A DNA stretch of 64,000 nt from Sphyrna mokarran. Its lineage: Eukaryota. Positions 9,266 to 64,000 of the stretch are shown here, in pieces. The stretch is taken from NCBI GenBank assembly GCA_024679065.1, contig JAGIQG010000004.1, forward strand, positions 62,930,001 to 62,994,000, in the 5' to 3' direction. The notes under the pieces were generated by a model. The model had not been told where the DNA came from, ran no database searches, and was given only the letters and a program-made list of their open reading frames with translations. A program made the translations under genes and the position numbers. Positions within the stretch are counted from its first letter, which is position 1; the number at the start of each line of letters is the position of its first letter.

Positions 9266-12200
9266 TGGTCCAGAGAGGAAACCCGATACTCTACACAGGT
9301 AGAGTATCCCACCCTCCCCCTCCTCTAACCTAATAATATAAGTGTGTGGGAAGTTTTTTTTTCTCTCTCCTTAAAGTAAATTAAAGTATCAGGGATGGCA
9401 GTGCAGGCAGTCCGTTGCAACTTCTGTAGTATGTATGAGGTGAGGGATGCCAGTAGTGTTCATGCTGATTATACCTGCGGGAAGTGTGCCCATTTGCAGC
9501 TCCTTGAGGATCGTGTTAAGGAGCTGGAGCTGGAATTAGAGGAACTCAGGATAATCCGAGAGGTTGAGGAGGATATTGGCAGGACTGACAAAGAGATAGT
9601 CACTCCTAAAAATGATTCGTGGGTAACTGTTAGGAGGAGGGGTAAGAAGCAATCGGGTAGACAATCCCCTGGGGCTGTTCCCCTCTGAAACAAATTTTCT
9701 GCTTGGATGCTACAGTTGAGGAAGAATCAACTGGAGAGGACCAAAGGGAGCAGGTCTCTGGGGGTGAGCCTGCTGAGAATGCTCAGGTGGGTAGGGAAAA
9801 CAAGAGATTGGGCCTAGTAATTGGAGACTCCATAGTTAGAGGGACAGATAGGAGAGTAAGTAGTAATAAAAGTGACTCAGGGCTGGTGTGTTGCCTCCCA
9901 GGTGCTGGAGTCCAGGATGTCACAGATAGGGTTTTTAGGATTCTTAAGGGAGAGGGGAGTCAACCCCAAGTCATAGTTCATGAAGAGACACATGATATAG
10001 GTAGGAAAAGGGAAGGGGATATTAAACAGAAATTTATGGAGTTGGGGTGGAAGCTTAGGGCCAAAACTCGCAGAGTGGTTATCTCTGGACTCTTGCCTGT
10101 GCCAAGGGATAGTTTGGAGAAGAATAGAGAGAGGGAATGTTTGAACTCGTGGCTGCGGGGATGGTGCAGGAGGGAGGAGTTCAGGTTCCTGAACAATTGG
10201 GACTCATTCTGGGATAGGTGGGACCTCTACAAGAGAGATGGTCTACACCTGAACCAGAGGGGAACTAATATCTTGGGGGGAAAATTTGCAAAGGCTATGC
10301 AGGGGGCTTTAAACTGATTCGGGGGGGGTGGGATCCTGAATAGTTGGGGTGCTAAGAGGGATGAGAGTAAGGGGGTCATAGAAGAAAGCCGTAAAACACA
10401 GCAGCATACGGGTGGGGTAGGGCATGGTTGAAATGCGTATACTTTAATGCAAGGAGTATTCGCAATAAGGGGGAGGAACTTGCAGCTTGGACCAGTACCT
10501 GGAACTTTGATGTTGTGGCCATTTCAGAGACTTGGGTAGAGCAGGACAAGAATGGATGTTGCAGGTTCCAGGGTTCAAATGCTTTAGTCGGAGTAGAGAA
10601 GGAGGTAGAAGGGGGGGAGGAGTGGCATTATTGGTCAAAGACTGTATCACAGTGACAGAGAAGAAGTTTGATGAGGACTTTTCTTTGAGGTAGTATGGGC
10701 TGAGATTAGAAACAGGAAAGGAGAGGTCACCCTGTTGGGAGTCTTTTATAGACCTCCTAAAAGTTCTAGAGAGGTAGAGGAAAGGAGTGCAAAGTCAATT
10801 CTGGTCAGGAGTGAAAGTAATAGGGTAATTGTAATGGGGGACTTTAACTTTACTAATATTGATTGGAATAGCTATAGCTCTAGCTCGTTAGAGGGATCAG
10901 TTTTCGTACAAAGTGTGCAGGAGGGTTTTTTGACTCAGTATGTAGATAGGCCAACTAGAGGTGAGGCTACATTGGATTTGGTGCTGGGCAATGAGCCAGA
11001 CCAGGTGTTAGGCCTGGAGGTTAGTGAACATTTTGGTGATAGTGACCACAATTCGGTTACGTTCACCTTAGTGATGGATAGGGATAGGCATGAAGCTGGG
11101 GGCAGTAGTTATAGCTGGGGGAAGGTAATTATGAGGCCATCAGGAGAGAATTAGGGTGCATAGATTGGACTAGGAAGCTACAGGGACTGGGAACATCTGG
11201 AATGTGGAGCTTATTCAAGGAGCAGCTGCTGTGGGTCCTTGATAAGTATGTCCCTGTCAGGCAAGGAGGAAATGGTCGAGTAAGAGAACCTTGGTGTACG
11301 AAAAAAGTTGATTTGCTGGTTAAAAAGGAAAAGGAGGCTTATGTCAGGATGAGGCTTGAAGGCTCGGTTAGTGCAATGGATAGCTATAGATTAGCCAGGA
11401 GGGAGCTAAAGAGTGAATTGAGGAGAGCTAAGAGAGGACATGAGAAGACTTTGGCTGATAGGATTAAGGAGAATCCTAAAGCTTTCCTTAGATATGTTAA
11501 GAATAGAAGATTGGTTAGGACAAGATTAGGGCCAGTCATAGACAGCAGTGGGAAGTTGTGCGTGGAGCCTGAGGAGATTGGAGAGGTACTGAATAAATAT
11601 TTCTCTTCGGTATTCACGCAGGGTGATGTAATGTAGTTATGGAGAACACTGAGGTACAGGGTAGCAAACTGGAAGGTATCGAAGTAGATAGGGAGGATGT
11701 GCTAGATATTCTCGAGGGTTTGAAGTTGGATAAGTCCCCTGGGCCGGACGGGATTTACCCTAGGATTCTCTGGGAGGCAAGAGAGAGATTGCAGAGCCTC
11801 TGGCTCTGATCTTCAGGCCGTCGTTTGTTACGGGTGTGGTTCCCAGAGGACTGGAGGATAGCAAATGTGGTCCCATTGTTCAAGAAGGGGAAGAGAGACC
11901 TTCCAGGGAATTATAGGCCAGTGAGTCTTACTTCTGTTGTGGGCAAAGTATTGGAGAGAATTATTAGGGATAGGATTTATAGTTATTTAGAGAGAAATGA
12001 ATTGATTGGGGATAGTCAGCATGGTTTTGTGAAGGGTAGGTCGTGCCTTACTAACCTCATTGAGTTTTTTGAAAAAGTGACTAGGGAGGTGGATGGGGGT
12101 AAGGCGGTTGATGTGGTATATATGGACTTTAGTAAGGCGTTCGATAAGGTGTCCCATGGAAGACTTCTGCAAAAAATGCAGATGTATGGGATAGAGGGTG

Positions 12201-31442: not shown

Positions 31443-31843
31443 GGTAATTGTAAGTTAATCCCATATTTACCAGTTTCCCAAATTTGTTTCTGAGACAAAT
31501 AAGCCTGATGGGTAAGACATTTACTACCAATGGACTCTTCCTTAGACCAAAAATGAATGGGTTCTTTAGAATCAATTACTCTAAAAACACTGGCAAAATG
31601 CAATATATCAACCGTCTTAGCATGTGAAGAAAATTGAATGCTTTGTTAGCACATGTAGAATTTTACTAAGCTCAATTTTAGTACGTAAATGCAGCCTTCT
31701 CATTTGTCTGCACACCAGGTTACAACTCTTGAAGCCATGTGATTCCTAACGTCACAACTAAATTTGAGATTATATTGGAGACACAGGCTCGGTGCTCACC
31801 CACTCAGGCTCGCGCTGTGCTCTACCGATTTACGTCAATAGAC

Positions 31844-31898
31844 ATGTTAAAGACTCTGTCACTCTGGGGCATTTGTTTCCTGGGAATTTGGTGTCCAG
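31844..31898 (+). CDS. Exon 1, signal peptide MLKTLSLWGICFLGIWCP
   Basis: gacATGtta start, 18 hydrophobic codons plus 1 nt, donor CCAG|GTAGAA. Phase 1 matches the acceptor at 32223. Confidence 0.85.
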
Positions 31899-34800
31899 GT
31901 AGAATGTTATATTTGTTATTGATGATTAAACCACCCTGAACAATAACTGATAACGGAGGCGAGTTGATGTTCTGTCGAGTACAGTTTTCTGCTATTTAAA
32001 TTTGACTAAATGTTTTAGTGTTATGTCTTATTTGACAAAGGTAACTATGTATAAGAAAGGCAACATTAATTATATTAATGGAAAAACACATTTATAAAAA
32101 GGAGATCATTCTGATAGGTACAGTGAATTACTAATATATTAATAGTCTGGTCTCGCAATGGCATTTATAGCCATGCCGATTACTTCTGAGTATCAACGAT
32201 TTATTCCGACTTTTGTTGATAGTTTTTACATGCAGTTTGGACACGGTGACACGAAAGAAGGTGCTGAGAGGTACAAACGTTACGTTCGGATGTCCTTTTT
32301 CTTTTCACCTCGATATTTCGAACATAATCGCTTACTGGTGGAAAGATGGTAATAAAACATTTCTTCAAGAAGACGGCAGAAAAGCTTTCAGTATAAAAAG
32401 AGCCGGCGCCTACCTCCATCTTCTGAATGTAACTGTTCCGGATTCTGGAACTTATTTTTGTGTAGTGAAGCATCAACGTCGAACAATTGGAGAAATAATT
32501 TCTGCGCGACTTTTTGTATATGGTAAGTGTTACTGCAATTAAGAAGAAAACTTTAGTTGCTGCAGGTATTCCAATTGTGTTTTATGAAGGCGCTTAAACA
32601 ATAAATAAGTGAACAAAATAATACAGCTCTCTAGCAAAAGGTGAAGTCTGGTGGCGATTTCAATCTGAAAGTCACACCTCAGGCGAGAAGCAAAGGCCTT
32701 CATGAATAATCTCAACTGGAATTAAGCCCGCGCTGTTAACGAAGCTCTGTATCATAAACCAGCCGTTTAGCCAACTGAGCCATCTGAACCCAAAGATGTC
32801 ACCTAAACAGCGACTTGAACCCTAGACCATCGGCTTAAAAATCTGATATTCTACTGACTGAGCAACCCAGGTAGCTTTCTAATACACTAACTGGAGCAAC
32901 AAGCGCTTGCGAATTTGGACGACAACTAGCACCAGCATATCTGAAAACAAGCGGATCACCTACATCTCCTCTGTTTGGTGCGTGGTTTATAATGGAAAAT
33001 TAATGCAAGGCTGGAAGTTAATGTGCATTTTCCGGGTCTGCCTCTACGTCAGTGTAAATAATTCCACCTAATGTTATATATTTTACATATCCAAAGATGT
33101 GCGGGTTAGGTTGATTGGCCATACTAACAATTGTCCCTTAGTGTCCTGAGATGAGTAGGTTAGAAGGATTAGCAGTTAAGTATGTAGGGATACGGAGGTA
33201 GAGCCTGGGTGGGATTGTGGTCGGTGCAGACTCAATGGGCCAAACGGCCTGTTTATGCACTGTAGGGTTTCTATGATTTTATGAAATCATTTAATTAAGT
33301 ACAAGAACCACATTCCTTTTTTTCTGATTATATGTTTATTTAAAATCCATTACATATTTAAAGGTTCATTTATTTTTGAAAGAAGTAGAGTCCCAAATCC
33401 TCTCATTGAGCCAGGACGCTTCTAAATTTTGCGAAACTGGTTGAAACACCAACTGAGTAACTGGGGAGATTCACGCGCTAACACACGTGTACCTGTCCAG
33501 AAAGTTGTCCGAATATTATCCTTTTTTATCCAAAAGGAAAATGAATGCCCTTAATGCTCGAATAGAACGTGACCTGTAGTATTTTTATAACTGAAGTCCA
33601 GGATGCCAATTCGACTACATTAACCAAGTTAAAAGGATGCCCATTGTAAACGAGTTCTTTTAAATATAAAATGAGTGTATAATTATATAAGGAAGGAAAC
33701 TGAGAACAATATACCTGGATCAGTGACGAACAAAGTAGACTGGAGGCCATTTACAATCAACAATGACATGGTCCAACTTCTACGAGTGAATATAGGTACT
33801 AAGGAACGCAAGAAGAGAAAGTAGTTAAATAATTTATATTCCCCTTTTTATTTACTTTTTGTTTGTTTTGAATCTAGTTGCCCCCGTACCCCTGAAGGTT
33901 GTCTCCATGCCATTCGAAGAGACTGCATCTGCATTTCTAAGACTCCAGTGTCGAACTGCTGAGTTTCACCCCAAGGACTTTAACCTCACCTGGCATAAAA
34001 ATGGCACCGAAATTACAACAGGATTTATAACTGAACAACAGGAAACGGCAAAAGGACTGTATGAAGTTATTAGTTCCTTGGAAGAGGCACTGCCAATTGA
34101 GCAGGGCACAGTTTACACGTGTCAAATCCACCACGTTTCTATCTCCGGTCCAGCAAATGGCAGCTATACTGTCGGCAACGTAGGTAAGACTAATTCATAA
34201 GTGGTATATATATATATAACTTAATCCAGCAGCAGTTGGGTTGTCACTGCACATGTTGAACAAAGAAAAAGTAAGTAGGTTACTGCAATTTACTCCCATT
34301 CTATTGTGGCAGTTCCGAATTCTCAAGTCGTTCAGAAATGACAACGTAGCCCACGGGGTGGATTCACTATCCAAGCCGAATTAAGAGAACATTTTTAGGA
34401 CAGAAAAATGTGCATAGATTGATGAAAACGACAGATAAATGTGAAGGAGATCTTAGAAGAATACATTAAGAAATAAACACTGAAGCAGATGTGACACGAA
34501 TCTGTCAGATCTATAGTAACAGTTGATATTTTGTAGTAGCAGGAATGACAGTTTATACATCGGAGGCAGAGCCAAATTAAGTTAATTGAACAAAAATCTG
34601 TTTAGTATGTTGTTTCTCAAATACTTAGCAATGAAAGGGGATTGAGTGTAAAGAAATACTGAAGGGAATTAGCGTTCAAAATCAGTGCTGAGATGTTGAG
34701 CGTATGCCCACCTGTTGGATAGACTATACATAGAAATGGCCTCTATATTTCGGAAAAGTACCTTAAAAAGAATATAAGGAACGAACAACCCATTTTAAAA

Positions 34801-40800: not shown

Positions 40801-42383
40801 GGTATATCATAACATTCAGAGTTATGGGCCAGCTGCTGGCAGATTTGATTAGGTGGGAGTTCAGGTGTTTCTAATGTGTTGGTGAGGTCTTTATAGGCTG
40901 AAGGGCCTCTTCTGTGCTGTATGAGTCGACACAGTTGTGGCACAGTGATTAGTACTGCAGCCTAACAGCACCATGGATCCAGGTTCAATTTTAGCCTTGG
41001 GTGACTTTCTAAATGGAATTTGCACATTCTCCACATGTCTGCATGGGTTTGTTCCACTTTCCTCACACAGTTTAAAAAAAAATGTGCAGGTTAAGTAGAT
41101 TGTCTGTTAGTGTCAAAGGAATTTTCTGGGTAAATCTCTGGGGATACGGGGATAGGACCTAAGAGGGATTGTTGTCAGTGCAGGCTTGATGGACTGAATG
41201 GCATTCTTGAACTTCTATGATAATGTCCTTAAACTGTAAAATAAAATTTAAAAAATTGAAGAGATGTTTGTATTTCTTGTCTCTCTTTAATTGCCCTTGA
41301 GTTACTGATTGACTTGGTAGCCAACTCAGAAGATGGATAATAATCAATCAATCACATTGCTTTGGGATTGGAGTGACATATAAACCAGATGAGGTGGAGA
41401 TGGAAGATTTTGCTCCATGAAGGACATGATTGAACCAAATGGATGTTTATGATAATCAATGATAGGTGTGGTTGCCAGCAATGTGATTAGTTTTCTGTTA
41501 TTAATTGAATTGTATTCAAATTTTACCAACTAGCCATAATGAAATGTGAAACCATGTCCTCAAAACATTAACTTGGACTCTGGAGCACTGGTCTTGAGAT
41601 ATTATGGCCACACCACCAGGTGCTTGCTTGCTAAATTTTACTGCTATGCAAAACATAAGATACATGTTGAAAGTAGCAGGTAGATAAGTTCTGTTTCTGG
41701 TCTCAATAATCATAAATATTATCATAATCCATGGATAACGAGGAGAGACTAAATCGGCTAGGTTTGTACTCTTTGGAGTTTAGAAGGCTGAGAGGGGATG
41801 TTGTAGAGATGTATAAGATAATAAAGGGGATGGATAAGATAGAGGTTGAGACACTCTTCCCGCTTAGCAAAGATAACAGGACTAGAGGGCACAGCCTCAA
41901 GATTGGGGCGGCGGGGGTTGGGGTTTGTGGTTCAGATCAGAGTTGAGGAGGAATTTCTTCATGCATCGGATGGTGCTTCTTTGGAATTCTCTGCCTGATG
42001 AAGTGGTGAAGGCTTCCTCACTGAATATGTTCAAGTCAAGAGTGGATAGGGTTTTTGATTGACAAGAGAATTAAGGGTTAAGGGGAGAAAGCAGGAAAGT
42101 GGCACAGAACCACTACAGATCAGCCATGATCTTATTGAATGGTGGGGCAGACTCAAGGGGCTGGATGGCCTACTCCTGCTCCTATTTCTTATGTTCTTAT
42201 GTTCTTATCATTGTTTAGTTTCTGACTTTGAGTTGTGAATCATTGATTATCTTATCTTTTGCAGATTACCACTTTGTATTTCCTATCCACCTGATTTACC
42301 GATCCACACTGGGGTTATTAGTACTTCTTGTACTAATAGTGATCAGCTTTGAACACATTGCATCAGAAAGGGCCCATTGGTAA
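31844..42383 (+). CDS. Spliced Ig-superfamily type I membrane receptor, leader-V-C1-TM(Arg)-short tail, 259 aa; join(31844..31898,32223..32522,33878..34183,42265..42383)
   Basis: Four exons with GT-AG boundaries, all introns phase 1 as typical of IgSF domain-per-exon genes. 55+300+306+119=780 nt, an open frame of 259 aa plus TAA. Six N-glycosylation sequons (NVT, NKT, NVT, NLT, NGT, NGS). Confidence 0.85.
32223..32522 (+). CDS. Exon 2, Ig V-like domain (VFTCSLDTVT...NVTFGC...YWWKDG...DSGTYFC...ARLFVY)
   Basis: Acceptor cttttgttgatag|TT and donor TATG|GTAAGT. B-strand Cys, C-strand Trp and D-x-G-x-Y-x-C motif are present; the G strand is in the same exon. Confidence 0.92.
32625..32791 (-). 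mobile_element. tRNA-derived SINE (non-HE1 type)
   Basis: The minus strand begins gggttcagatggctcagttggctaaacgg (A-box-like), followed by a B-box-like segment and a short body. Confidence 0.55.
32800..32872 (-). pseudogene. Degenerate tRNA-Lys(UUU) copy in the V-C1 intron
   Basis: The reverse complement aligns without gaps to the vertebrate tRNA-Lys-TTT sequence (GCCCGGATAGCTCAGTCGG...GGTTCAAGTCCCTGTTCGGGCG), about 57/73 identities by hand; stems are disrupted. Confidence 0.8.
33088..33285 (+). mobile_element. 3' half of an HE1 SINE
   Basis: ccaaagatgtgcgggttagg...ttctatgattttatga. Confidence 0.8.
33878..34183 (+). CDS. Exon 3, Ig C1-set domain (LRLQCRTAEFHPKDFNLTWHKNG...GLYEVISSL...VYTCQIHHVS)
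   Basis: Long polypyrimidine tract with ctag| acceptor, donor GTAG|GTAAGA. C1 hallmarks L-x-C-x4-F-x-P-x4-L-x-W, Y-x3-S-x-L and Y-x-C-x-I-x-H; 56 residues between the two Cys. Confidence 0.93.
34913..36415 (-). mobile_element. 5'-truncated CR1 family B
   Basis: KFADD ORF 36093-36338; 3'UTR matches 1721-2260. Confidence 0.9.
36690..37800 (+). mobile_element. Old CR1 fragment with a nested HE1 SINE (37087-37387, minus)
   Basis: CR1 ORF2 linker region (ENPKIFYKY) on both sides of the SINE. Confidence 0.7.
38338..39238 (+). mobile_element. 5'-truncated CR1 family B
   Basis: ORF 38346-38579 plus family B 3'UTR and tail. Confidence 0.9.
39500..40925 (+). mobile_element. Degenerate CR1 (RT to 3' end)
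   Basis: [15 protein letters not shown] and GVPQGSVLG motifs. Confidence 0.85.
40929..41220 (+). mobile_element. HE1/V-SINE
   Basis: gtggcacagtgattagtactgc head, V core and tail. Confidence 0.8.
41730..42208 (+). mobile_element. CR1 3' fragment ending ~55 bp before the TM exon acceptor
   Basis: LYSLEFRRLRGD; (TTCTTATG)n tail. Confidence 0.85.
42265..42383 (+). CDS. Exon 4, transmembrane segment and short tail DYHFVFPIHLIYRSTLGLLVLLVLIVISFEHIASERAHW*
   Basis: Unique island between LINEs with acceptor cttatcttttgcag|. Phase-1 reading gives a hydrophobic helix with Arg (CGA 42300-42302). It ends TGG TAA, overlapping a possible donor TG|GTAAGA. Confidence 0.8.
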
Positions 42384-42431
42384 GAGAATTTTAAGACAGG
42401 TTTATAACATTCAGCAACATTTGTTGACATA

Positions 42432-43510
42432 CAAAGAACAAAACAGCACAGGAAACAGGCCCTTCGGCCCAACAAGCCCGCGCCGCGACCCCAATGTTCC
42501 CATCTCTACCCGTGATCCCTGTCTATGTTTATAGATCTATGGATTAAAAACCAAATTTGAGACAGTTTAGGGAGAATTTGTTTTGCCAATTAGACTAAGG
42601 ACATATCTTTGGGATGTGGGAGGAAACCTGAGCCCCCAGAGAAAACGCATGCAAGCACGGGGAGAATGCACAAACTTCCACAGACACACGCCCAAATCCA
42701 TGTATCTGCACAGCACAGCGATAGTCACTGAGCTGTCGTGTTGCCCGTCAAATGGTCCAGATCAAGCGTACACTAACGACGTGAAGCACTAGGATACTCT
42801 CCAGAAGAATCCAAGAGCAGCCCTCTCACGACCCATCGCGTGAACACCCCTTGTTAGACAACAAGGTGGACCAAAGCACCTGTAGGATTAAAAACAAGTA
42901 CATCAATATCATTGTCTATTTACACACTTCCCAGGGACTCCCCAGGCTTATGATCCCTATTTAAATCAGTTTTCTGTACCCCTTCATTCCCATTCTGTTC
43001 ATGTGCCATCTAAGTATTTCTTAAATAACTCCAGAGTACCTGCATCCACCATTTTACTTGTCAGCGCATTCCATATCCCCACCACCCTCTATGTGAAAAA
43101 TCTCCCTCTAGCATCCAAATTATACCTTACCCCCCTCACCCTAAGCCCGTGACCCCTCATGCTATTTCAGTCCATCCTAGGAAAAAGCTTAACCCTGTTT
43201 ATCTATACCCCTCATAATCTTGTACACCTCCATTAGATCTCCTCTAAGTCTACATCTTTCTAAGGAAAACAGTCCCAATTTGCCTAACCTTTCCTTGTAT
43301 CTCAGACCTTCTATACCAGGCAGCATCCTGGTAAACCTCCTCTGCACTCTCTCCATAGTCTCCACGTCCTTCCATTAGTAAGGTGACCTGAAGTGGATGC
43401 AGTATTCCAAATGAGGTCTAACCAACATTTTATACAACTGCAACATTAAAGGCCAGGTCTTGTACTCTGTACCCCTTCCTATAAAGGCTAGCATACCATA
43501 TGCTTTCTTC
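42432..43510 (-). mobile_element. 5'-truncated CR1 family B, ~50 bp after the receptor stop codon
   Basis: Family B tail, 3'UTR and RT C-terminus. Confidence 0.9.
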
Positions 43511-44540: not shown

Positions 44541-45134
44541 TTCCCTATATTAATGCATTTTGTTACGTGCTAGCCTGTCTAATCCTATACAAGTTAATTT
44601 CTGTTATTGTAACTGTTTGTCGTTCCTTGGTATTAACTGCATTCTTTTAAAATATGTCTCTGTATTCCAAATTCCAAGCCATCAATTTTCCAGTCTGTAG
44701 AACTAGTATTTATCATGAATTTCACTCCCTGTCCTTAAACTACTATTTAGTCCAAGTGGACCCAAGACCTTCCTATTCCAGAAGTGTCAATTTTATCAAT
44801 AAACCTTTCACTGGCACTTTTAAACTGCCTTCTTAAAGGCAACAAGTGTCATACTCCATTCATCAATTTCTTCTGTGACTTCATTAAAAAATCAGTTACG
44901 TTATTCAACTATAATCTGCCTTGTACAAATTTGTGCTGGTTTGACATAATTATCTGCAACACCCTACTTCTCCTCTTCCAACTCCTCCCTCCCTCCATCA
45001 GTAGCTGTTGATTATCTGCCATGATTACTGTTTCCTAAAACATACCCACTATTAATGGTAAATAAATTAGCCAGTAATTTCCAGGACTATGTTTTCTTTT
45101 TAAAATAAGGATACTGCATTTCCCATTCACTTGT

Positions 45135-54953: not shown

Positions 54954-55029
<76 letters not shown>
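54954..55029 (+). repeat. (CA)38 microsatellite
   Basis: Perfect dinucleotide run. Confidence 0.98.
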
Positions 55030-55030
<1 letters not shown>

Positions 55031-55505
55031 CATGCCTCATTGCTACTCCCTCCCCCTATCTCTCTCCACACACAGACATGGCTGCTCGCTCACCTCATGC
55101 TCCCATGGATCCACATATCCAGAATGCAATCCCTCCATCGCTTAAACAAATCGTTCTCACTGCTGTCTTGCAGAGATCTAACATTGTGATGAAATGCACA
55201 ACCCCAGCTTGTGATTATTCCCTCTCTTGAATAAGAGCCTTGAGTATTGCACTCCGTGGACACAGCAGCTAATCGATTAGGAGTCCTGTGTATAGCAACC
55301 CGCCTGGACAGCCTATTGAATGGTAGCCAATTAGTACCCTGAGGAATGAATGACACTCAATTGAATGAAGCCTTCAAAATCTCTCACAAACATTTGTTGC
55401 CACTGGGTCCTTGACTGGCTATATTCACTGCACGTGCATTCCTCTAATAAGCCAGAGCTGTATATTAGCTGCAGGAATGGACGCACAGCCAGTCACACCA
55501 CAAAG

Positions 55506-55720
55506 ATGGATGCTCGTAAACCAGCTCCCAGATATTTGGAGGCAGACCAGCAGCACCTACTAGATGCCGTGGAGGAGAGGCGTGACTGTCTGTTCCCTGG
55601 CCAGAGCCCCAACCCAAGGGGTGTTTCTGCCATGGCATTGTGGGAAGAGGTAGCAGAATTGGTGAATGCCAGGAACCTGACGTTATGTTCTGACTGGCAG
55701 TGCTGCAAAAATATGTACAT
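55506..55720 (+). pseudogene. Harbinger Myb/SANT-like DNA-binding protein, N-terminal part; continues at about 55940-56023, 59230-59330 and 59420-60335
   Basis: KPAPRYLEADQQHLLDAVEERRDCLFP...LWEEVAELVNA...QCCK (MSANTD/NAIF1-like). Confidence 0.8.
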
Positions 55721-56044
55721 CAGCGAGAGTGAGCGGTCATCCCTCTTGGAACCGTGCATATGTTTAGCACAGATATCCAATCCTTCTTAGGCAACTAAAG
55801 GCCATGCAACAAGTTACCCTTTCCCCAGGAACGAAATCTAACTGCTTAATGAGCACCCTTCAGCACAATACCTGAGTCACATACTTGCATTGCCACCATG
55901 CACCGCAATATGTTAATATTTGCTATCCACCTTATGATCGCCAGGAAAGAAAATCCACAACACGTGGGAGATGACACAGATTGATGATGGTGTGCCTGAC
56001 CTGCAGCAGCTGAGCAGTATGAATATGAACAGTATGAATGAGCA

Positions 56045-59000
56045 GGATAGTTTAGAGAAGAACAGAGAGAGGGAATGTTTGAACTCGTGGCTGCGGGGAT
56101 GGTGCAGGAGGGAGGGGTTCAGGTTCCTGAACAATTGGGACTCATTCTGGGATAGGTGGGACCTCTACAAGAGAGATGGTCTACACCTGAACCAGAGGGG
56201 AACTAATATCTTGGGGGGAAAATTTGCTAAGGCTATGCAGGGGGCTTTAAACTGATTCGGGGGGGGGTGGGATCCTAAGTAGTTGGGGTGCTAAGAGGGA
56301 TGAGAGTAAGGGGGTCATAGAGGAAAGCTGTAAAACACAGCAGCGTACGGGTGGGGTAGGGCATGGTTTGAAATGCGTATACTTTAATGCAAGGAGTATT
56401 CGCAATAAGGGGGAGGAACTTGCAGCTTGGACCAGTACCTGGAACTTCGATGTTGTGGCCATTTCAGAGACTTGGGTAGAGCAGGGACAAGAATGGATGT
56501 TGCAGGTTCCGGGGTTCAAATGCTTCAGTCGGAGTAGAGAAGGAGGTAGAAGGGGGGGAGGAGTGGCATTATTAGTCAAAGACTGTATCACAGTGACAGA
56601 AAAGAAGTTTGATGAGGACTTGTCTGTTGAGGTAGTATGGGCTGAGATTAGAAACAGGAGAGGAGAGGTCACCCTGTTGGGAGTCTTTTATAGACCTCCT
56701 AAAAGTTCTAGAGAAGTTGAGGAAAGGATTGCAAAGTCAATTCTGGTCAGGAGTGAAAGTAATAGGGTAATTGTTATGTGGGACTTTAACTTTACTAATA
56801 TTGATTGGAATAGCTATAGCTCTAGCTCGTTAGAGGGGTCAGTTTTCGTACAAAGTGTGCAGGAAGGTTTTTTCACTCAGTATGTAGATAGGCCAACTAG
56901 AGGTGAGGCTACATTGGATTTGGTGCTGGGCAATGAGCCAGACCAGGTGTTAGGCTTGGAAGTTGGTGAACATTTTGGTGATAGTGACCACAATTCGGTT
57001 ACGTTCACCTTAGTGATGGATAGGGATAGGCATGAAGCTGGGGGCAGTAGTTATAGCTGGGGGAAGGGTAATTATGAGGCCATCAGGAGAGAATTAGGGT
57101 GCATAGATTGGACTAGGAAACTACAGGGACTGGGAACATCTGGAATGTGGAGCTTATTCAAGGAGCAGCTGCTGCGAGTCCTTGATAAGTATGTCCCTGT
57201 CAGGCAAGGAGGAAATGGTCGAGTAAGAGAACCTTGGTGTACGAAAAAAGTTGATTTGCTGGTTAAAAGGAAAAAGGAGGCTTATGTCAGGATGAGGATT
57301 GAAGGCTCGGTTAGTGCAATGGATAGCTATAGATTAGCCAGGAGGGAGCTAAAGAGTGAATTGAGGAGAGCTAAGAGAGGACACGAGACGACTTTGGCTG
57401 ATAGGATTAAGGAGAATCCTAAAGCTTTCTTTAGATATGTTAAGAATAGAAGATTGGTTAGGACAAGATTAGGGCCAGTCACAGACAGCAGTGGGAAGTT
57501 GTGCGTGGAGCCTGAAGAGATTGGAGAGGCACTGAATAAATATTTATCTTCGGTATTCACGCAGGGTGATGTAAATGTAGTTATGGAGAACACTGAGGTA
57601 CAGGGTTGCAAACTGGGAAGTATTGAAGTAGATAGGGAGGAGGTGCTAGAAATTCTCGAGGGTTTGAAGTTGGATAAGTCCCCTGGGCCGGACGGGATTT
57701 ACCCTAGGATTCTCTGGGCGGCAAGAGAGGAGATTGCAGAGCCTCTGGCTCTGATCTTCAGGTCCTCGTTGGTTACAGGGGTGGTTCCGGAGGACTGGAG
57801 GATAGCGAATGTGGTCCCATTGTTTAAGAAGGGGAAGAGAGACCTTCCAGGGAATTATAGGCCAGTGAGTCTTACTTCTGTTGTGGGCAAAGTATTGGAG
57901 AGAATTAGTAGGGATAGGATTTATAGTTATTTAGAGAGAAATGAATTGATTGGGGATAGTCAGCATAGTTTTGTGAAGGGTAGGTCGTGCCTTACTAACC
58001 TCATTGAGTTTTTTGAAAAAGTGACTAAAGAGGTGGATGGGGGTAAGGTGGTTGATGTGGTATATATGGACTTTAGTAAGGCGTTTGATAAGGTGGCCCA
58101 TGGAAGACTTCTGCAGAAAATGCAGATGTATGGGATTGAGGGTGATTTAGCTAAGTGGATTAGGAATTGGCTAGCAGATAGAAGACAGAGGGTGGTGGTT
58201 GATGGGAGATATTCATCGTGGAGTTTGGTGACAAGTGGTGTACCTCAGGGGTCTGTTTTGGGGCCCCTGCTGTTTGTAATTTTTATAAATGATCTGGATG
58301 AGGGTAGTGAAGGGTGGATTAGTAAATTTGCAGATGACACTAAAGTCGGTGGAGTGGTAGATAGTGAAGAGGGGTGTTATAGTTTGCAGAGGGACTTGGA
58401 CAAGTTGCAGAGCTGGGCCGAGAGGTGGCAAATGGAGTTTAATGTGGAAAAGTGTGAGGTAATGCACTATGGCAGAAATAATAAATGTGTAGAGTATAGG
58501 GCTAATGGTAGGATTCTTAGTAGTCTTGATGAACAGAGGGATCTTGGTGTGTATGTGCATAGATCCCTGAAAGTAGGCAGTCAAGTCGAAAAGGTTGTTA
58601 AGAAGGCATATGGAGTCTTAGCTTTTATTGGTAGGGGGATTGAATTTCGGAGCCGCAACGTCATATTGCAACTGTACAAAACTCTAGTGCGGCCGCACTT
58701 GGAGTATTGTGTGCAGTTCTGGTCCCCGCATTATAAGAAAGATGTGGAGGCATTAGAGAGGGTACAGAGGAGGTTTACCAGGATGTTGCCTGGTATGGAG
58801 GGCAGGTCTTATGAAGAGAGGCTGAGGGATTTGAGGTTGTTTTCGTTAGAAAGGAGGCGGCTAAGAGGGGACCTTATTGAAACATATAAGATGATTAGAG
58901 GTTTAGATAGGGTGGACAGTGATAGCCTTTTTCCTAGGATGGAGAAAGCTAGCACGAGGGGACACAGCTTTAAATTAAGGGGTGATAGTTATAGGACGGA

Positions 59001-59229
59001 TATCAGAGGTAGGTTCTTTACCCAAAGGGTGGTTCGGGAGTGGAATGCCCTGCCTGCAGCAGTTGTAGATGCTCCAAGTTTGGTGGCGTTTAAGAGGTTA
59101 GTTGATAAGTATATGGAAGAGAAGGGAATGGTTTAGTTTGGAGGGTCATTGCTTTTTATATTGGTCGGCGCAACATCGAAGGCCGAAGGGCCTGTTCTGT
59201 GCTGTAATGTTCTATGTTCTATGTTCTAT
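56045..59229 (+). mobile_element. Young CR1 family A, 5'-truncated within ORF1, with uninterrupted ORF2
   Basis: ORF1 C-terminus to 56255, ORF2 56368-59136 and (TTCTATG)n tail. Confidence 0.97.
56368..59136 (+). CDS. CR1 ORF2: APE endonuclease plus reverse transcriptase, 922 aa (true start uncertain)
   Basis: YFNARS, ISETW, DFN, SDH; [21 protein letters not shown]; no stops or frameshifts. Confidence 0.95.
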   Translation: MKCVYFNARSIRNKGEELAAWTSTWNFDVVAISETWVEQGQEWMLQVPGFKCFSRSREGGRRGGGVALLVKDCITVTEKKFDEDLSVEVVWAEIRNRRGEVTLLGVFYRPPKSSREVEERIAKSILVRSESNRVIVMWDFNFTNIDWNSYSSSSLEGSVFVQSVQEGFFTQYVDRPTRGEATLDLVLGNEPDQVLGLEVGEHFGDSDHNSVTFTLVMDRDRHEAGGSSYSWGKGNYEAIRRELGCIDWTRKLQGLGTSGMWSLFKEQLLRVLDKYVPVRQGGNGRVREPWCTKKVDLLVKRKKEAYVRMRIEGSVSAMDSYRLARRELKSELRRAKRGHETTLADRIKENPKAFFRYVKNRRLVRTRLGPVTDSSGKLCVEPEEIGEALNKYLSSVFTQGDVNVVMENTEVQGCKLGSIEVDREEVLEILEGLKLDKSPGPDGIYPRILWAAREEIAEPLALIFRSSLVTGVVPEDWRIANVVPLFKKGKRDLPGNYRPVSLTSVVGKVLERISRDRIYSYLERNELIGDSQHSFVKGRSCLTNLIEFFEKVTKEVDGGKVVDVVYMDFSKAFDKVAHGRLLQKMQMYGIEGDLAKWIRNWLADRRQRVVVDGRYSSWSLVTSGVPQGSVLGPLLFVIFINDLDEGSEGWISKFADDTKVGGVVDSEEGCYSLQRDLDKLQSWAERWQMEFNVEKCEVMHYGRNNKCVEYRANGRILSSLDEQRDLGVYVHRSLKVGSQVEKVVKKAYGVLAFIGRGIEFRSRNVILQLYKTLVRPHLEYCVQFWSPHYKKDVEALERVQRRFTRMLPGMEGRSYEERLRDLRLFSLERRRLRGDLIETYKMIRGLDRVDSDSLFPRMEKASTRGHSFKLRGDSYRTDIRGRFFTQRVVREWNALPAAVVDAPSLVAFKRLVDKYMEEKGMV

Positions 59230-62629: not shown

Positions 62630-63410
62630 ACAATGATGGATGAATTTGAAGCCCGGAGCCCAGGTCTCCTGCTGTGCATGGCACATCTCGAAGTTAATAA
62701 ACTGCCCTATCTGGGCATATAGAGCATTTATGATCTGCCGCACACCTCGCTGCTCAGAGGTCTGGAAGATCCCAGTTAGGTGACTACTAGGAGCATGGAA
62801 TGATCCAGAGGCATAGAAATTGAGGGCTGCCGTTACCTTTATCTCCACAGGAAGTGAGTGGCCACTGCTCCCCCAAGGTGCCAGGTATAAAGAACAAAGA
62901 ACAAAGAAAATTACAGCATAGAAACAGGCCCTTTGATCCTCTAAGCCTGCAATGACCATGCTTTCTGACTTAACTAAAACCCTTTACACTTCCGGGGACC
63001 ATATCCTCTATTCCCCTCTCTTTCATGTACTTGTCAAGGCACTCCTTAAAAGTCACTACCGTATCCACTTCCACTACCTGTCACAGCAAAAAGCTCACAC
63101 TCTCTGTGTAAAAAAATCTGCCTCATACATCTCTTTTAAAATTTGCCCCCCACACCTTAAACCTATGCTTCCTACTAATTGACTCTTCCATCGTGGGAAA
63201 AAAAACTTCTGACTTTCCAGACTATACATGCCTCTCATGATCTTGTAGACTTCTATCAGGTCTCCCCTCAACCTTCATTGCTCCAGTGAGAACAAACCAC
63301 AGGTATGAGAGCGCCTCACAAATCTTGGACAAGCTCAGCTCGCAATGCCACATGTCTTCCAAGCGGCTCTTAAGAGAATTGAGGAACCTGTACCTCCTTA
63401 GCCTCGGCAC
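62630..63410 (-). pseudogene. Harbinger (HARBI1-like) transposase N-terminal remnant, split by a CR1 3' end at 62889-63299
   Basis: GHSLPVEIKVTAALNFYASGSF...GIFQTS...IINALY; caggtat is duplicated at 62882-62888 and 63300-63306. Confidence 0.85.
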
Positions 63411-64000
63411 ACTCCACCTTCTGTGTACCCTCTCAGGAGCCTGCTCACCAACCTCCTGGCCCTCAGCAGCAGCCCCCTGCCCTCTTCCCTTATGGTCTGG
63501 TGGTGGTTACTCTCGCAGTGGTCTCTCCACACCTGCCACTACCTCTTCCCCCTTCTGCTGTTACAAGTATGGCCAGCTCCAGATCAAACATACTGAGATC
63601 CACCTGCACAATAAGGTTTGGAAAGAGCATAGAATGACAGAGCACATGGACCAGTTTCCCCACTTCTGGGAGATGGCAACCCAAAACAATCCATGGTGCC
63701 ATGTGTGACCCGTTTAGGGTTGTGGGAGTTTCTCTTCACTACAAATACTAACACAGATTATGCAAGTCAGTGTGTAGACATGGATAATGTGCACCCTTGA
63801 GCCATTGTTATTTATGCAACTTCAGCATCTGTTACAGTATGTGTTGTTGGTCTCGAAACATCGAAAAACTACAGCAAAAACAGGCCCTTTATTCCACAAG
63901 TTGCACCAATTATGTCCCTACCTTCTAGGCATACCTATAATCTTCTATGTTACTAAGTTCCAAGTACTTAATCAAAAGTCTCTTAAAAGATCCTATCGAA

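What the first reader, a model, noticed from the sequence alone, without database searches (positions are those of the whole stretch)
42265..42383. Hidden TM exon with an Arg and motif-free tail: activating-receptor signature
Seen: 8 kb downstream of C1, between two LINEs and absent from the ORF track, is an exon reading PIHLIY-R-STLGLLVLLVLIVISF-EHIASERAHW*, with no ITAM, ITIM or Tyr in the tail. Known: an Arg near the outer end of the TM is how NKp30, NKp46, GPVI and LILRA pair with the FcR-gamma/CD3-zeta adaptors, whereas DAP12 partners usually use a central Lys. Inference: this is an activating receptor that signals via FcR-gamma or CD3-zeta and may have ITIM-bearing inhibitory paralogs nearby.
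Basis: partly seen in the sequence, partly recalled or inferred. Interest (0 to 1): 0.75.

Follow-up and report, generated by a model that had tools for sequence, protein, structure and literature searches.

The report
Shark activating immune receptor membrane exon
This is the real membrane-anchor exon of a shark immune receptor gene whose buried arginine marks it as a probable 'on-switch' member of a large family of on/off receptor pairs in sharks, rays and chimaeras, although the end of its tail and its signalling partner remain unproven.

Summary
The exon is real. It is exon 4 of an open leader-V-C1-TM gene and matches annotated TM exons of catsharks, a bamboo shark and Heptranchias. The Arg (42300-42302) is kept in all of them and lies inside the predicted helix. 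The claimed stop is doubtful: its TAA lies inside a canonical donor (TG|GTAAGA, 42379/42380). Scyliorhinus and Chiloscyllium models continue past that point, and no matching next exon is in the window. The gene belongs to a chondrichthyan V-C1 family with two TM classes: Arg with short tail (median 18 aa) and neutral with long tail (median 96 aa; ITIM-like motifs in 20 of 35, against 3 of 19 Arg-type). Arg goes with a short tail in independent pairs (p 0.016); absence of ITIM does not reach significance there (p 0.125). No paralog lies in this window. Best reading: the activating member of a paired-receptor family, coupling to a zeta/FcR-gamma-type adaptor. Coupling is inferred, and one 2014 survey found no FcR-gamma in sharks. 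The mechanism is known; the family was not described in ten literature searches.

The parts
31844..31898 (+). Leader exon (ATG, 18 codons + 1 nt), phase-1 donor GTAGAA
   Evidence: 14 of 15 residues identical to the Scyliorhinus N-termini; splice sites and frame
32223..32522 (+). Exon for a short V-type Ig domain including its G strand (VJ in one exon). Cys-Cys spacing is 56 and the family's J-like GxG is absent in this copy
   Evidence: Pfam ig E 5.6e-8, V-set E 1.3e-5; boundaries; 66 of 98 identical to S. torazame, GxG in 44 of 54 homologs
33878..34183 (+). Exon for a C1-set Ig domain, phase-1 donor GTAAGA
   Evidence: Pfam C1-set E 5e-11, above cut-off; 84 of 101 identical to S. torazame
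42265..42379 (+). Stalk + transmembrane + first tail residues exon (115 nt, phase 1 in, phase 2 out if the donor is used)
   Evidence: tblastn to orthologs; frame open across the four exons, 258 aa, no stop; helix prediction
42300..42302 (+). Arg codon (CGA) near the outer end of the TM helix; only 16 uncharged residues follow before Glu
   Evidence: Arg in 11 of 12 rows of alignment A3
42351..42356 (+). Glu-His at +17/+18 from the Arg, the [D/E/N]H end typical of one Arg-type TM class
   Evidence: 10 of 19 Arg-type against 1 of 35 other homologs
42380..42385 (+).
   Evidence: orthologs continue at the matching codon
41740..42205 (+). CR1 LINE 3' remnant upstream of the exon (not part of the gene product)
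   Evidence: self-repeat coverage; translation resembles the C-terminus of the window's intact ORF2, judged by eye
42431..43510 (-). CR1 LINE 3' remnant starting about 50 bp after the exon
   Evidence: covered 7 times by other window copies; reverse-strand translation

Best explanation
The exon is the membrane anchor of an intact type I receptor (leader, V, C1, short stalk, TM, short tail) in a shark whose closest relatives found are catsharks. The receptor is an activating member of a chondrichthyan multigene family of paired V-C1 receptors. Shown: gene structure, conservation, the Arg in the helix, and the two TM/tail classes. Inferred: (1) the Arg, about four residues into the outer leaflet, pairs with the two Asp of a zeta- or FcR-gamma-type ITAM dimer, as for CD89, NKp30, NKp46 and TCR-alpha (PMC13107469); (2) ligand binding by the V domain then signals through the adaptor's ITAMs; (3) ITIM-tailed paralogs with similar ectodomains give the opposing signal. 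The tail probably ends shortly after this exon or continues into a short, poorly conserved exon outside the window; no ortholog model carries an ITAM.
For: Open four-exon frame with AG/GT sites. Arg in all orthologs: on the ectodomain tree the window gene groups with both catsharks (100/93) and C. punctatum (100/99), all Arg-type. AlphaFold puts the S. canicula ortholog's helix at 228-254 with Arg at 233, and the window exon's helix at 4-36 with Arg at 12. Only 16 uncharged residues follow the Arg, too few to cross a bilayer without it (helix length is general knowledge). Among 54 homologs, tails of 60 aa or more occur in 1 of 19 Arg-type and 24 of 35 others, and ITIM-like motifs in 3 of 19 and 20 of 35. 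In 9 independent pairs Arg goes with a short tail 7.0 to 0.2 (median p 0.016). The starred 15-row subfamily that holds the window gene has 9 Arg-type and 6 neutral members, 5 of the 6 with ITIM-like motifs. Arg-type and ITIM-type members both occur in Heterodontus (same 99.65-Mb contig length) and in the chimaera Callorhinchus milii. The anatomy matches the definition of paired receptors in PMC3533184 and the two-class pattern of the Xenopus FcR-like family, where the Arg-type TM was shown to need FcR-gamma (PMC2413239).
Against: No adaptor binding, expression or ligand was tested. PMC4016189 (2014) found no FcR-gamma homolog in the shark data then available; I could not re-test this. The Asn three residues before the Arg, invariant in the tetrapod NxxR class, is Leu here and present in only 2 of 19 Arg-type homologs. 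Absence of ITIM does not reach significance in independent pairs (5.8 to 0.7, p 0.125), nor does the [D/E/N]H end (p 0.125). Three Arg-type proteins have ITIM-like motifs: a Mustelus protein with an 80-aa tail, the C. punctatum RefSeq model of the direct ortholog (absent in its other model), and one motif next to the membrane. Eleven of 35 neutral members have tails under 60 aa, some probably truncated models. Within the window gene's own subfamily no single species in my sample has both types. The tails are computed gene models, and the tail exon of this gene was not found. The window's V lacks the family GxG.
Confidence: 0.72

Rival explanations
1. The protein is a B7-H6-like or other B7-like ligand. 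The Arg only sets the depth of the helix at the membrane surface and recruits no adaptor.
For: The best whole-ectodomain fold match is B7-H6 (Z 16.1, rmsd 3.2, 183 aligned, 25% identity), tied within about 1 Z with ICOS-L and PD-L2. Several homologs carry the automatic name 'NCR3 ligand 1-like'. Kyte-Doolittle windows differ on whether the Arg is inside: the 19-residue window excludes it, the 21- and 23-residue windows include it.
Against: Arg tracks short tails across independent lineages, and the alternative class has long ITIM-bearing tails. The Arg-type TMs mostly lack the cluster of basic residues after the helix that a plain anchor has, and many end in an acidic residue. A shared two-domain fold does not show function.
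Confidence: 0.1
2. It is an activating receptor, but the partner is DAP10/DAP12-like or another chain (for example a family member or a CD3-type dimer), not zeta/FcR-gamma.
For: The top full-length non-antibody sequence matches include SIRP-alpha and SIRP-gamma, and SIRP-beta signals through DAP12 (PMC3533184). NKG2D uses an Arg with DAP10 (PMC13107469). FcR-gamma was reported absent from sharks (PMC4016189).
Against: DAP10/DAP12 and CD3 partners use a centrally placed basic residue, whereas zeta/gamma partners use an Arg in the top half (PMC13107469). Here the Arg is fourth in a 20-residue hydrophobic run.
Confidence: 0.08
3. In this species the gene is decaying or yields mainly soluble V-C1 forms, and the TM exon is a conserved but rarely used relic between LINE insertions.
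For: A LINE starts about 50 bp after the exon, the homologous tail exon is not in the next 21.6 kb, and the V G-strand motif is lost. S. canicula RefSeq lists TM-less isoforms X2 and X3 and a second TM-less model.
Against: All four exons are open and in phase with canonical sites. The window's end branch is short (0.18 against a median of 0.32). The TM exon keeps 20-22 of 36 residues against three orthologs.
Confidence: 0.07
4. It is a mixed-signal receptor (Arg TM plus a tyrosine-motif tail supplied by an exon beyond the window).
For: The donor at 42380 is canonical. The C. punctatum RefSeq ortholog ends in a formal ITIM match, and a Mustelus paralog combines an Arg TM with an ITIM tail.
Against: The S. 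canicula tail has no Tyr, the S. torazame tail has one Tyr outside any motif, both Heptranchias proteins stop inside the exon, and the second C. punctatum model lacks the motif.
Confidence: 0.06

Closest known systems
FcR-gamma/zeta-coupled Arg-type activating receptors (CD89, LILRA, NKp46, GPVI, OSCAR: the NxxR-TM class; also NKp30) and Xenopus FcR-like TM1 receptors
   Same: Arg near the outer end of the TM, short tail, an acidic residue at the inner end and an Asp-Tyr near the start of the TM exon. PMC6557307 lists these as conserved features. Neutral-TM, ITIM-tailed counterparts exist (PMC2413239).
   Different: No Asn three residues before the Arg in this gene. The ectodomain is V + C1-set, whereas LRC receptors have only C2 domains (PMC4016189). 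The Arg sits in the same alignment column as the Gly of the family's neutral TMs, which fits origin within the family as well as import of a module. No sequence-level link to tetrapod TMs was found.
Signal regulatory proteins (SIRP-alpha/beta/gamma)
   Same: Paired family with V and C1-set domains and a joined VJ-type V (PMC11599192). SIRP-alpha and -gamma are the best full-length non-antibody PDB sequence matches after shark UrIg2 (E 2e-29 and 1.4e-25). RefSeq names many homologs 'SHPS-1-like'.
   Different: Two Ig domains rather than three (V-C1-C1; recalled). SIRP-beta couples to DAP12 (PMC3533184) through a central Lys (recalled). The scores gain from repeated C1 domains. Orthology and synteny were not tested.
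B7-H6 (NCR3LG1) and other B7/butyrophilin-like V-C ectodomains
   Same: Two-domain V-C ectodomain; top structural match (Z 16.1).
   Different: B7-H6 is known as a ligand of NKp30, not as one of many paired receptors. The match is tied with ICOS-L and PD-L2. No orthology test was run.
Shark non-rearranging antigen-receptor relatives UrIg/UrIg2 (VJ-C1 genes)
   Same: Single-exon VJ domain followed by C1, non-rearranging, in cartilaginous fish (PMC12227049, PMC10751288). UrIg2 ranks second in two PDB sequence searches.
   Different: UrIg2 has nine C1 domains and forms disulfide dimers. This family has one C1, a short V (Cys-Cys 54-60) and activating/inhibitory TM classes. The UrIg2 score is summed over several C1 domains.
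RefSeq/GenBank gene models of the orthologs (XP_038662036.1, GCB66622.1, XP_072403667.1, XP_067853503.1, XP_067853505.1)
   Same: Same leader-V-C1-TM layout and the same TM exon; the exon is already annotated in these species.
   Different: They carry automatic names (tapasin-related, NCR3LG1-like, uncharacterized) and no functional reading. No protein flagged as the window's own came up.

Membership tests
Paired activating/inhibitory Ig-superfamily receptors (definition in PMC3533184) | Related ectodomains shared by activating-type and inhibitory-type members | tested here: met
   Starred 15-row clade (100/100) holds 9 Arg-type and 6 neutral members; the Arg label needs 11 changes on the tree
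Paired activating/inhibitory Ig-superfamily receptors (definition in PMC3533184) | Activating member has Arg or Lys in the TM | tested here: met
   Arg at 42300 inside the predicted helix and conserved
Paired activating/inhibitory Ig-superfamily receptors (definition in PMC3533184) | Activating member has a short tail | tested here: inconclusive
   Ortholog tails are 8-47 aa, but this gene's tail end is unresolved because of the donor at 42380
Paired activating/inhibitory Ig-superfamily receptors (definition in PMC3533184) | Inhibitory members carry ITIMs | tested here: met
   20 of 35 non-Arg homologs have ITIM-like motifs, up to four in Heterodontus XP_067906072.1; motif matches only
Paired activating/inhibitory Ig-superfamily receptors (definition in PMC3533184) | Genes clustered on one chromosome | tested here: inconclusive
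   Within each species the members looked up share one longest-contig length, which shows a shared chromosome at most; no paralog in this window
Paired activating/inhibitory Ig-superfamily receptors (definition in PMC3533184) | Association with an ITAM adaptor and expression on immune cells | not testable with these tools
NxxR-type TM class (PMC2413239, PMC6557307) | Arg at the N-terminal end of the TM | tested here: met
NxxR-type TM class (PMC2413239, PMC6557307) | Asn three residues before the Arg | tested here: not met
   Leu in the window; Asn in 2 of 19 Arg-type homologs
NxxR-type TM class (PMC2413239, PMC6557307) | Acidic residue at the C-terminal end of the TM | tested here: met
   Glu at +17; [D/E/N]H in 10 of 19 Arg-type homologs
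NxxR-type TM class (PMC2413239, PMC6557307) | DYT consensus at the N-terminus of the TM exon | tested here: inconclusive
   DY followed by His at the exon start in the window, one Heptranchias protein and C. punctatum; catsharks differ. The paper's alignment figure is not held, so spacing was not compared
NxxR-type TM class (PMC2413239, PMC6557307) | TM and tail encoded by one exon | tested here: inconclusive
   Both Heptranchias proteins end within the length of this exon; catshark and bamboo shark models run on
SIRP family | V-C1-C1 ectodomain (recalled) | tested here: not met
   One V and one C1 exon only; the family profile finds no further Ig exon in the window
SIRP family | Activating member couples to DAP12 by a central Lys (DAP12 from PMC3533184; Lys recalled) | tested here: not met
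   No Lys in the TM; the basic residue is an Arg near the outer end
SIRP family | CD47 binding or orthology by synteny | not testable with these tools
   No vertebrate genome collection is on hand
B7-H6 (NCR3LG1) | V + C1 two-domain ectodomain | tested here: met
B7-H6 (NCR3LG1) | Closer to B7-H6 than to other B7-type folds | tested here: inconclusive
   Z 16.1 against 15.5 and 15.1 for ICOS-L and PD-L2 entries; B7-H6 not among the best 60 sequence hits
B7-H6 (NCR3LG1) | Binding to NKp30 | not testable with these tools
UrIg-type non-rearranging VJ-C1 genes | V and J-like G strand in one exon | tested here: met
   V exon 32223-32522 includes the G strand
UrIg-type non-rearranging VJ-C1 genes | J-like GxG motif | tested here: not met
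   Absent in the window copy, present in 44 of 54 homologs
UrIg-type non-rearranging VJ-C1 genes | Several C1 domains forming an Fc-like dimer | tested here: not met
   One C1 exon; UrIg2 has nine
UrIg-type non-rearranging VJ-C1 genes | Linkage to the MHC or to the IgH/TCR-alpha-delta complex | not testable with these tools
   No other host gene was identified in the window

The most novel reading that the evidence does not exclude
Cartilaginous fish keep a large cluster of germline-encoded VJ-C1 receptors, with the domain plan of a single antigen-receptor chain. Its activating members signal through a zeta-type dimer by an Arg placed like the zeta-contacting Arg of TCR-alpha. One Arg-x16-[D/E/N]H membrane cassette, as old as the shark-chimaera split, has been swapped among ectodomains again and again: the 11 proteins that carry it do not form one ectodomain clade (p-AU 1e-42). 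The family would be a living relative of the pre-RAG receptor with both signalling modes, and the cassette could be kin to the tetrapod NxxR TM.
Probability: 0.12. Interest if true: 0.85.

Novelty: new variant of a known kind. Interest (0 to 1): 0.52.

Why it matters
Innate activating/inhibitory receptor families are well charted in mammals, birds, frogs and bony fish, but PMC4016189 found no LRC- or FcR-like genes in sharks. A V-C1 paired family spanning sharks, rays and a chimaera would supply such a system for the oldest jawed vertebrates with adaptive immunity. It would date Arg-mediated coupling to zeta/gamma-type adaptors outside the TCR to the base of jawed vertebrates. It gives a direct test of which adaptor sharks use, and adds candidates to the search for non-rearranging VJ-C1 relatives of antigen receptors. 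The single exon is ordinary and already annotated in other sharks; the interest lies in the family.

Tried and rejected
Tail exon: ungapped scans with ortholog tails found nothing on the right strand and side above background. A scan of 1,564 AG sites from 42400 on gave a best score of 14.3, equal to the upstream background and below the 22-67 among the ortholog tails themselves. Poly(A) hexamers in the first 1.1 kb after the TAA all lie in repeats; the first in unique sequence is at 44798, so they decide nothing.

Paralogs in the window: tblastn with 54 family proteins and the family profile found only the four exons. Other hits came from LINE sequence inside one faulty gene model.

Links to tetrapod TMs: the TM exon found no PDB sequence at E up to 10, no Pfam family and no Atlas cluster above 0.79. 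A region search with the C. punctatum TM and tail returned only itself among 11 candidates, missing even known orthologs, so it is insensitive. With both Arg and the DH columns masked, Arg-type TMs from other subfamilies no longer resembled the window's class more than neutral ones (p 0.35; p 0.04 with only Arg masked). A shared cassette therefore rests on those three positions.

Names: rejected as TCR or Ig chain (V and G strand in one exon, one C1, no second basic residue) and as tapasin, SIRP or MHC class II, which are automatic names. Foldseek was swamped by antibody light chains. Rfam found nothing in the window. No complex prediction was run, because no adaptor sequence was on hand. The bacterial, phage and plasmid collections were not searched, as they do not bear on a shark gene.
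Full report
What the window is. The window is 42% G+C eukaryotic DNA, and about half of it repeats within itself, mostly as CR1-type LINE pieces. Its only recognisable host gene is an Ig-superfamily gene whose closest relatives are catshark proteins, so the source is a shark (inference).

Gene structure. Four exons on the + strand join in frame with AG/GT sites and no stop, giving 258 residues up to the donor after the TM exon: leader 31844-31898, V 32223-32522, C1 33878-34183 and TM 42265-42379. Pfam supports an Ig/V-type domain and a C1-set domain. Against the Scyliorhinus torazame protein GCB66622.1 the exons are 14/15, 66/98, 84/101 and 20/36 identical.

The observation. It is the most hydrophobic of 71 candidate phase-1 exons downstream of C1, and gene models of two catsharks, a bamboo shark and Heptranchias join C1 to the same exon. 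One part of the observation does not stand. The TAA read as the stop is bases 2-4 of a canonical donor, GTAAGA, identical to the C1 donor. At the matching codon the Scyliorhinus and Chiloscyllium models have Arg and then continue with a related sequence that has no counterpart in the window's downstream DNA. This suggests a phase-2 splice there (inference; I did not see their DNA). Both Heptranchias proteins stop just before this point. In this species the product could end at W-stop by read-through, at TG|A if the next exon starts with A, or after a further short exon. The next exon was not found in the remaining 21.6 kb.

The Arg. It is present in every ortholog and in 11 of 12 rows of alignment A3, a set I chose for this TM type. 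AlphaFold models place it inside the helix: residue 233 of helix 228-254 in the S. canicula ortholog, and residue 12 of helix 4-36 for the window exon alone (a short hydrophobic peptide tends to fold as one helix, so this is weak). Only 16 uncharged residues lie between the Arg and the next Glu, so the Arg must be a few residues inside the outer leaflet. Hydropathy windows of 21 and 23 residues include it; the best 19-residue window does not.

The family. A profile search gave 21 clusters at E up to 0.001 among 4,532 candidates, all from sharks, rays or Callorhinchus. The wider search gave 74 representatives at E up to 1e-30. I examined 68 of the new representatives, kept 57 with at least 35% identity over 150 residues to named shark proteins, and aligned 36 of them with 18 named proteins (A2, 54 rows). 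The 21 dropped were 14 without a usable TM and 7 partial or multi-domain models; those 7 all had neutral TMs, 6 with ITIM-like motifs. Named isoforms and fused or partial named models were also left out. Ten representatives looked up were all chondrichthyan; 26 rows remain unnamed. In a realignment of the region after C1, the Arg falls in the column that holds Gly in most neutral TMs. One Arg-type row (Leucoraja) was shifted by one residue by hand.

The two classes. Arg-type proteins (19) have a median tail of 18 residues against 96 for the other 35. Tails of 60 or more occur in 1 of 19 and 24 of 35, ITIM-like motifs in 3 of 19 and 20 of 35, and a [D/E/N]H at +17/+18 in 10 of 19 and 1 of 35. 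No ITAM was found in any of the 54 tails. These counts are not independent. On the ectodomain tree, 9 independent pairs give Arg with short tail 7.0 to 0.2 (median p 0.016), Arg without ITIM 5.8 to 0.7 (p 0.125) and Arg with the DH end 4.5 to 0.3 (p 0.125). The tree needs 11 changes of the Arg label, at least 9 on starred branches. The window gene groups with the two catshark proteins (100/93), then C. punctatum (100/99), inside a 15-row subfamily with 9 Arg-type and 6 neutral members. In that subfamily the neutral members come from Heterodontus and Stegostoma and the Arg-type ones from other species, so a matched pair in one species is not shown. Across the family, Heterodontus has both types on a contig of one length (99,651,266), and C. 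milii has both. The 11 proteins with Arg plus [D/E/N]H do not form one ectodomain clade (p-AU 1e-42; the group was defined by TM sequence after the tree had been seen). That fits exchange of TM exons or conversion of ectodomains, but repeated gain or loss is not excluded, and the resemblance vanishes when those three positions are masked. No paralog exon lies in this window.

Mechanism. Established knowledge: an Arg near the top of the TM pairs with the two Asp of zeta-zeta or gamma-gamma dimers (CD89, TCR-alpha; assumed for NKp30 and NKp46), while DAP12/CD3-type partners use a central Lys and NKG2D-DAP10 a central Arg (PMC13107469). Paired receptors combine charged-TM, short-tail members with ITIM members in gene clusters (PMC3533184). 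In Xenopus the NxxR-type TM needed FcR-gamma for full surface expression (PMC2413239). Inference: this gene encodes the activating type and uses a zeta/gamma-type adaptor (0.72). Against: nothing was assayed; PMC4016189 found no FcR-gamma in the shark data of 2014, so a zeta-like chain may be the partner; the Asn of NxxR is missing; and a few Arg-type members carry ITIM-like motifs, including one of two models of the C. punctatum ortholog.

Comparison. It works like the Arg-type FcR-gamma/zeta-coupled receptors, but fails the NxxR motif test (Leu at -3) while sharing the acidic inner end and an Asp-Tyr exon start noted in PMC6557307. It is not filed as SIRP (two domains, no TM Lys), although SIRP-alpha and -gamma are top non-antibody sequence matches. 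The ectodomain fold is closest to B7-H6, tied with ICOS-L and PD-L2. The V exon includes its G strand and 44 of 54 homologs have a J-like GxG, which this copy has lost. The family is thus VJ-C1 in plan, like UrIg, but with one C1.

Literature seen. Ten full-text searches (listings and abstract openings) showed no paper describing this family. Passages only were read for PMC10751288, PMC12227049, PMC6557307, PMC4536121, PMC13107469, PMC4016189, PMC11599192 and PMC3533184; passages plus section 6 for PMC2413239; term searches for PMC3964593. Supplement searches found none of my terms in PMC3964593 (1 file held, which may not include the immune-gene notes) or PMC12227049 (2 files). The B7-family paper PMC3709836 is not held. 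The library lacks most subscription papers and bioRxiv supplements, so an earlier description under names such as B7H6-like, SIRP-like or VJC1 is quite possible.

Verdict. A real, conserved TM exon with a buried Arg, in a gene that very probably encodes an activating member of a chondrichthyan V-C1 paired-receptor family. The mechanism is known; the family appears poorly described. New variant of a known kind, interest 0.52.

Noticed in passing
window 56251-59133 (+): Uninterrupted 961-codon CR1-type LINE ORF2 with endonuclease and reverse transcriptase domains. Near-identical broken copies lie at about 10.4-13.2 kb (+) and 3.5-4.7 kb (-), so the family looks young.
   Followed up: partly
window 9380-10314 (+): ORF1-like region of a CR1 element with a GDSL/SGNH esterase-like match (Pfam E 5.7e-7, below cut-off), broken across frames.
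   Followed up: partly
window 55500-55730 (+) and about 63250-63760 (-): By eye, a Myb/SANT-like fragment and a transposase-like remnant, as in Harbinger-type DNA transposons (recalled). Pfam found nothing at E 0.01 for the ORFs tried.
   Followed up: partly
window 31733-31843 (+): Sequence upstream of the ATG matches N-terminal extensions in S. torazame (68% over 19 residues) and Heterodontus gene models; probably conserved 5' UTR or promoter mis-annotated as coding there.
   Followed up: no
window 32223-32522 (+): The V domain is short (Cys-Cys 56; family 54-60) and this copy lacks the J-like GxG found in 44 of 54 homologs; several members of its subfamily have lost it too.
   Followed up: partly
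P0006-P0008 (S. canicula XP_038662038.1, XP_038662040.1, XP_038661943.1): TM-less isoforms and a second TM-less model of the ortholog suggest possible soluble V-C1 forms.
   Followed up: no
P0053 (Mustelus XP_078066431.1) and P0076 (Heptranchias XP_067853650.1): Intermediate TM types: Arg TM with an 80-residue ITIM-bearing tail, and Gln in place of Arg with the Asp-His end kept.
   Followed up: partly
P0097 (Chiloscyllium plagiosum XP_043563377.1) and P0096 (Leucoraja XP_055505064.1): Two family members do have a literal NxxR at the start of the TM, the motif described for tetrapod FcR-gamma-coupled receptors.
   Followed up: partly
P0048 (Heterodontus XP_067905015.1), residues about 48-134: The RefSeq model begins with LINE reverse-transcriptase sequence, an annotation artefact that hits many repeats in this window.
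   Followed up: yes
window 54954-55029: (CA)38 microsatellite.
   Followed up: no
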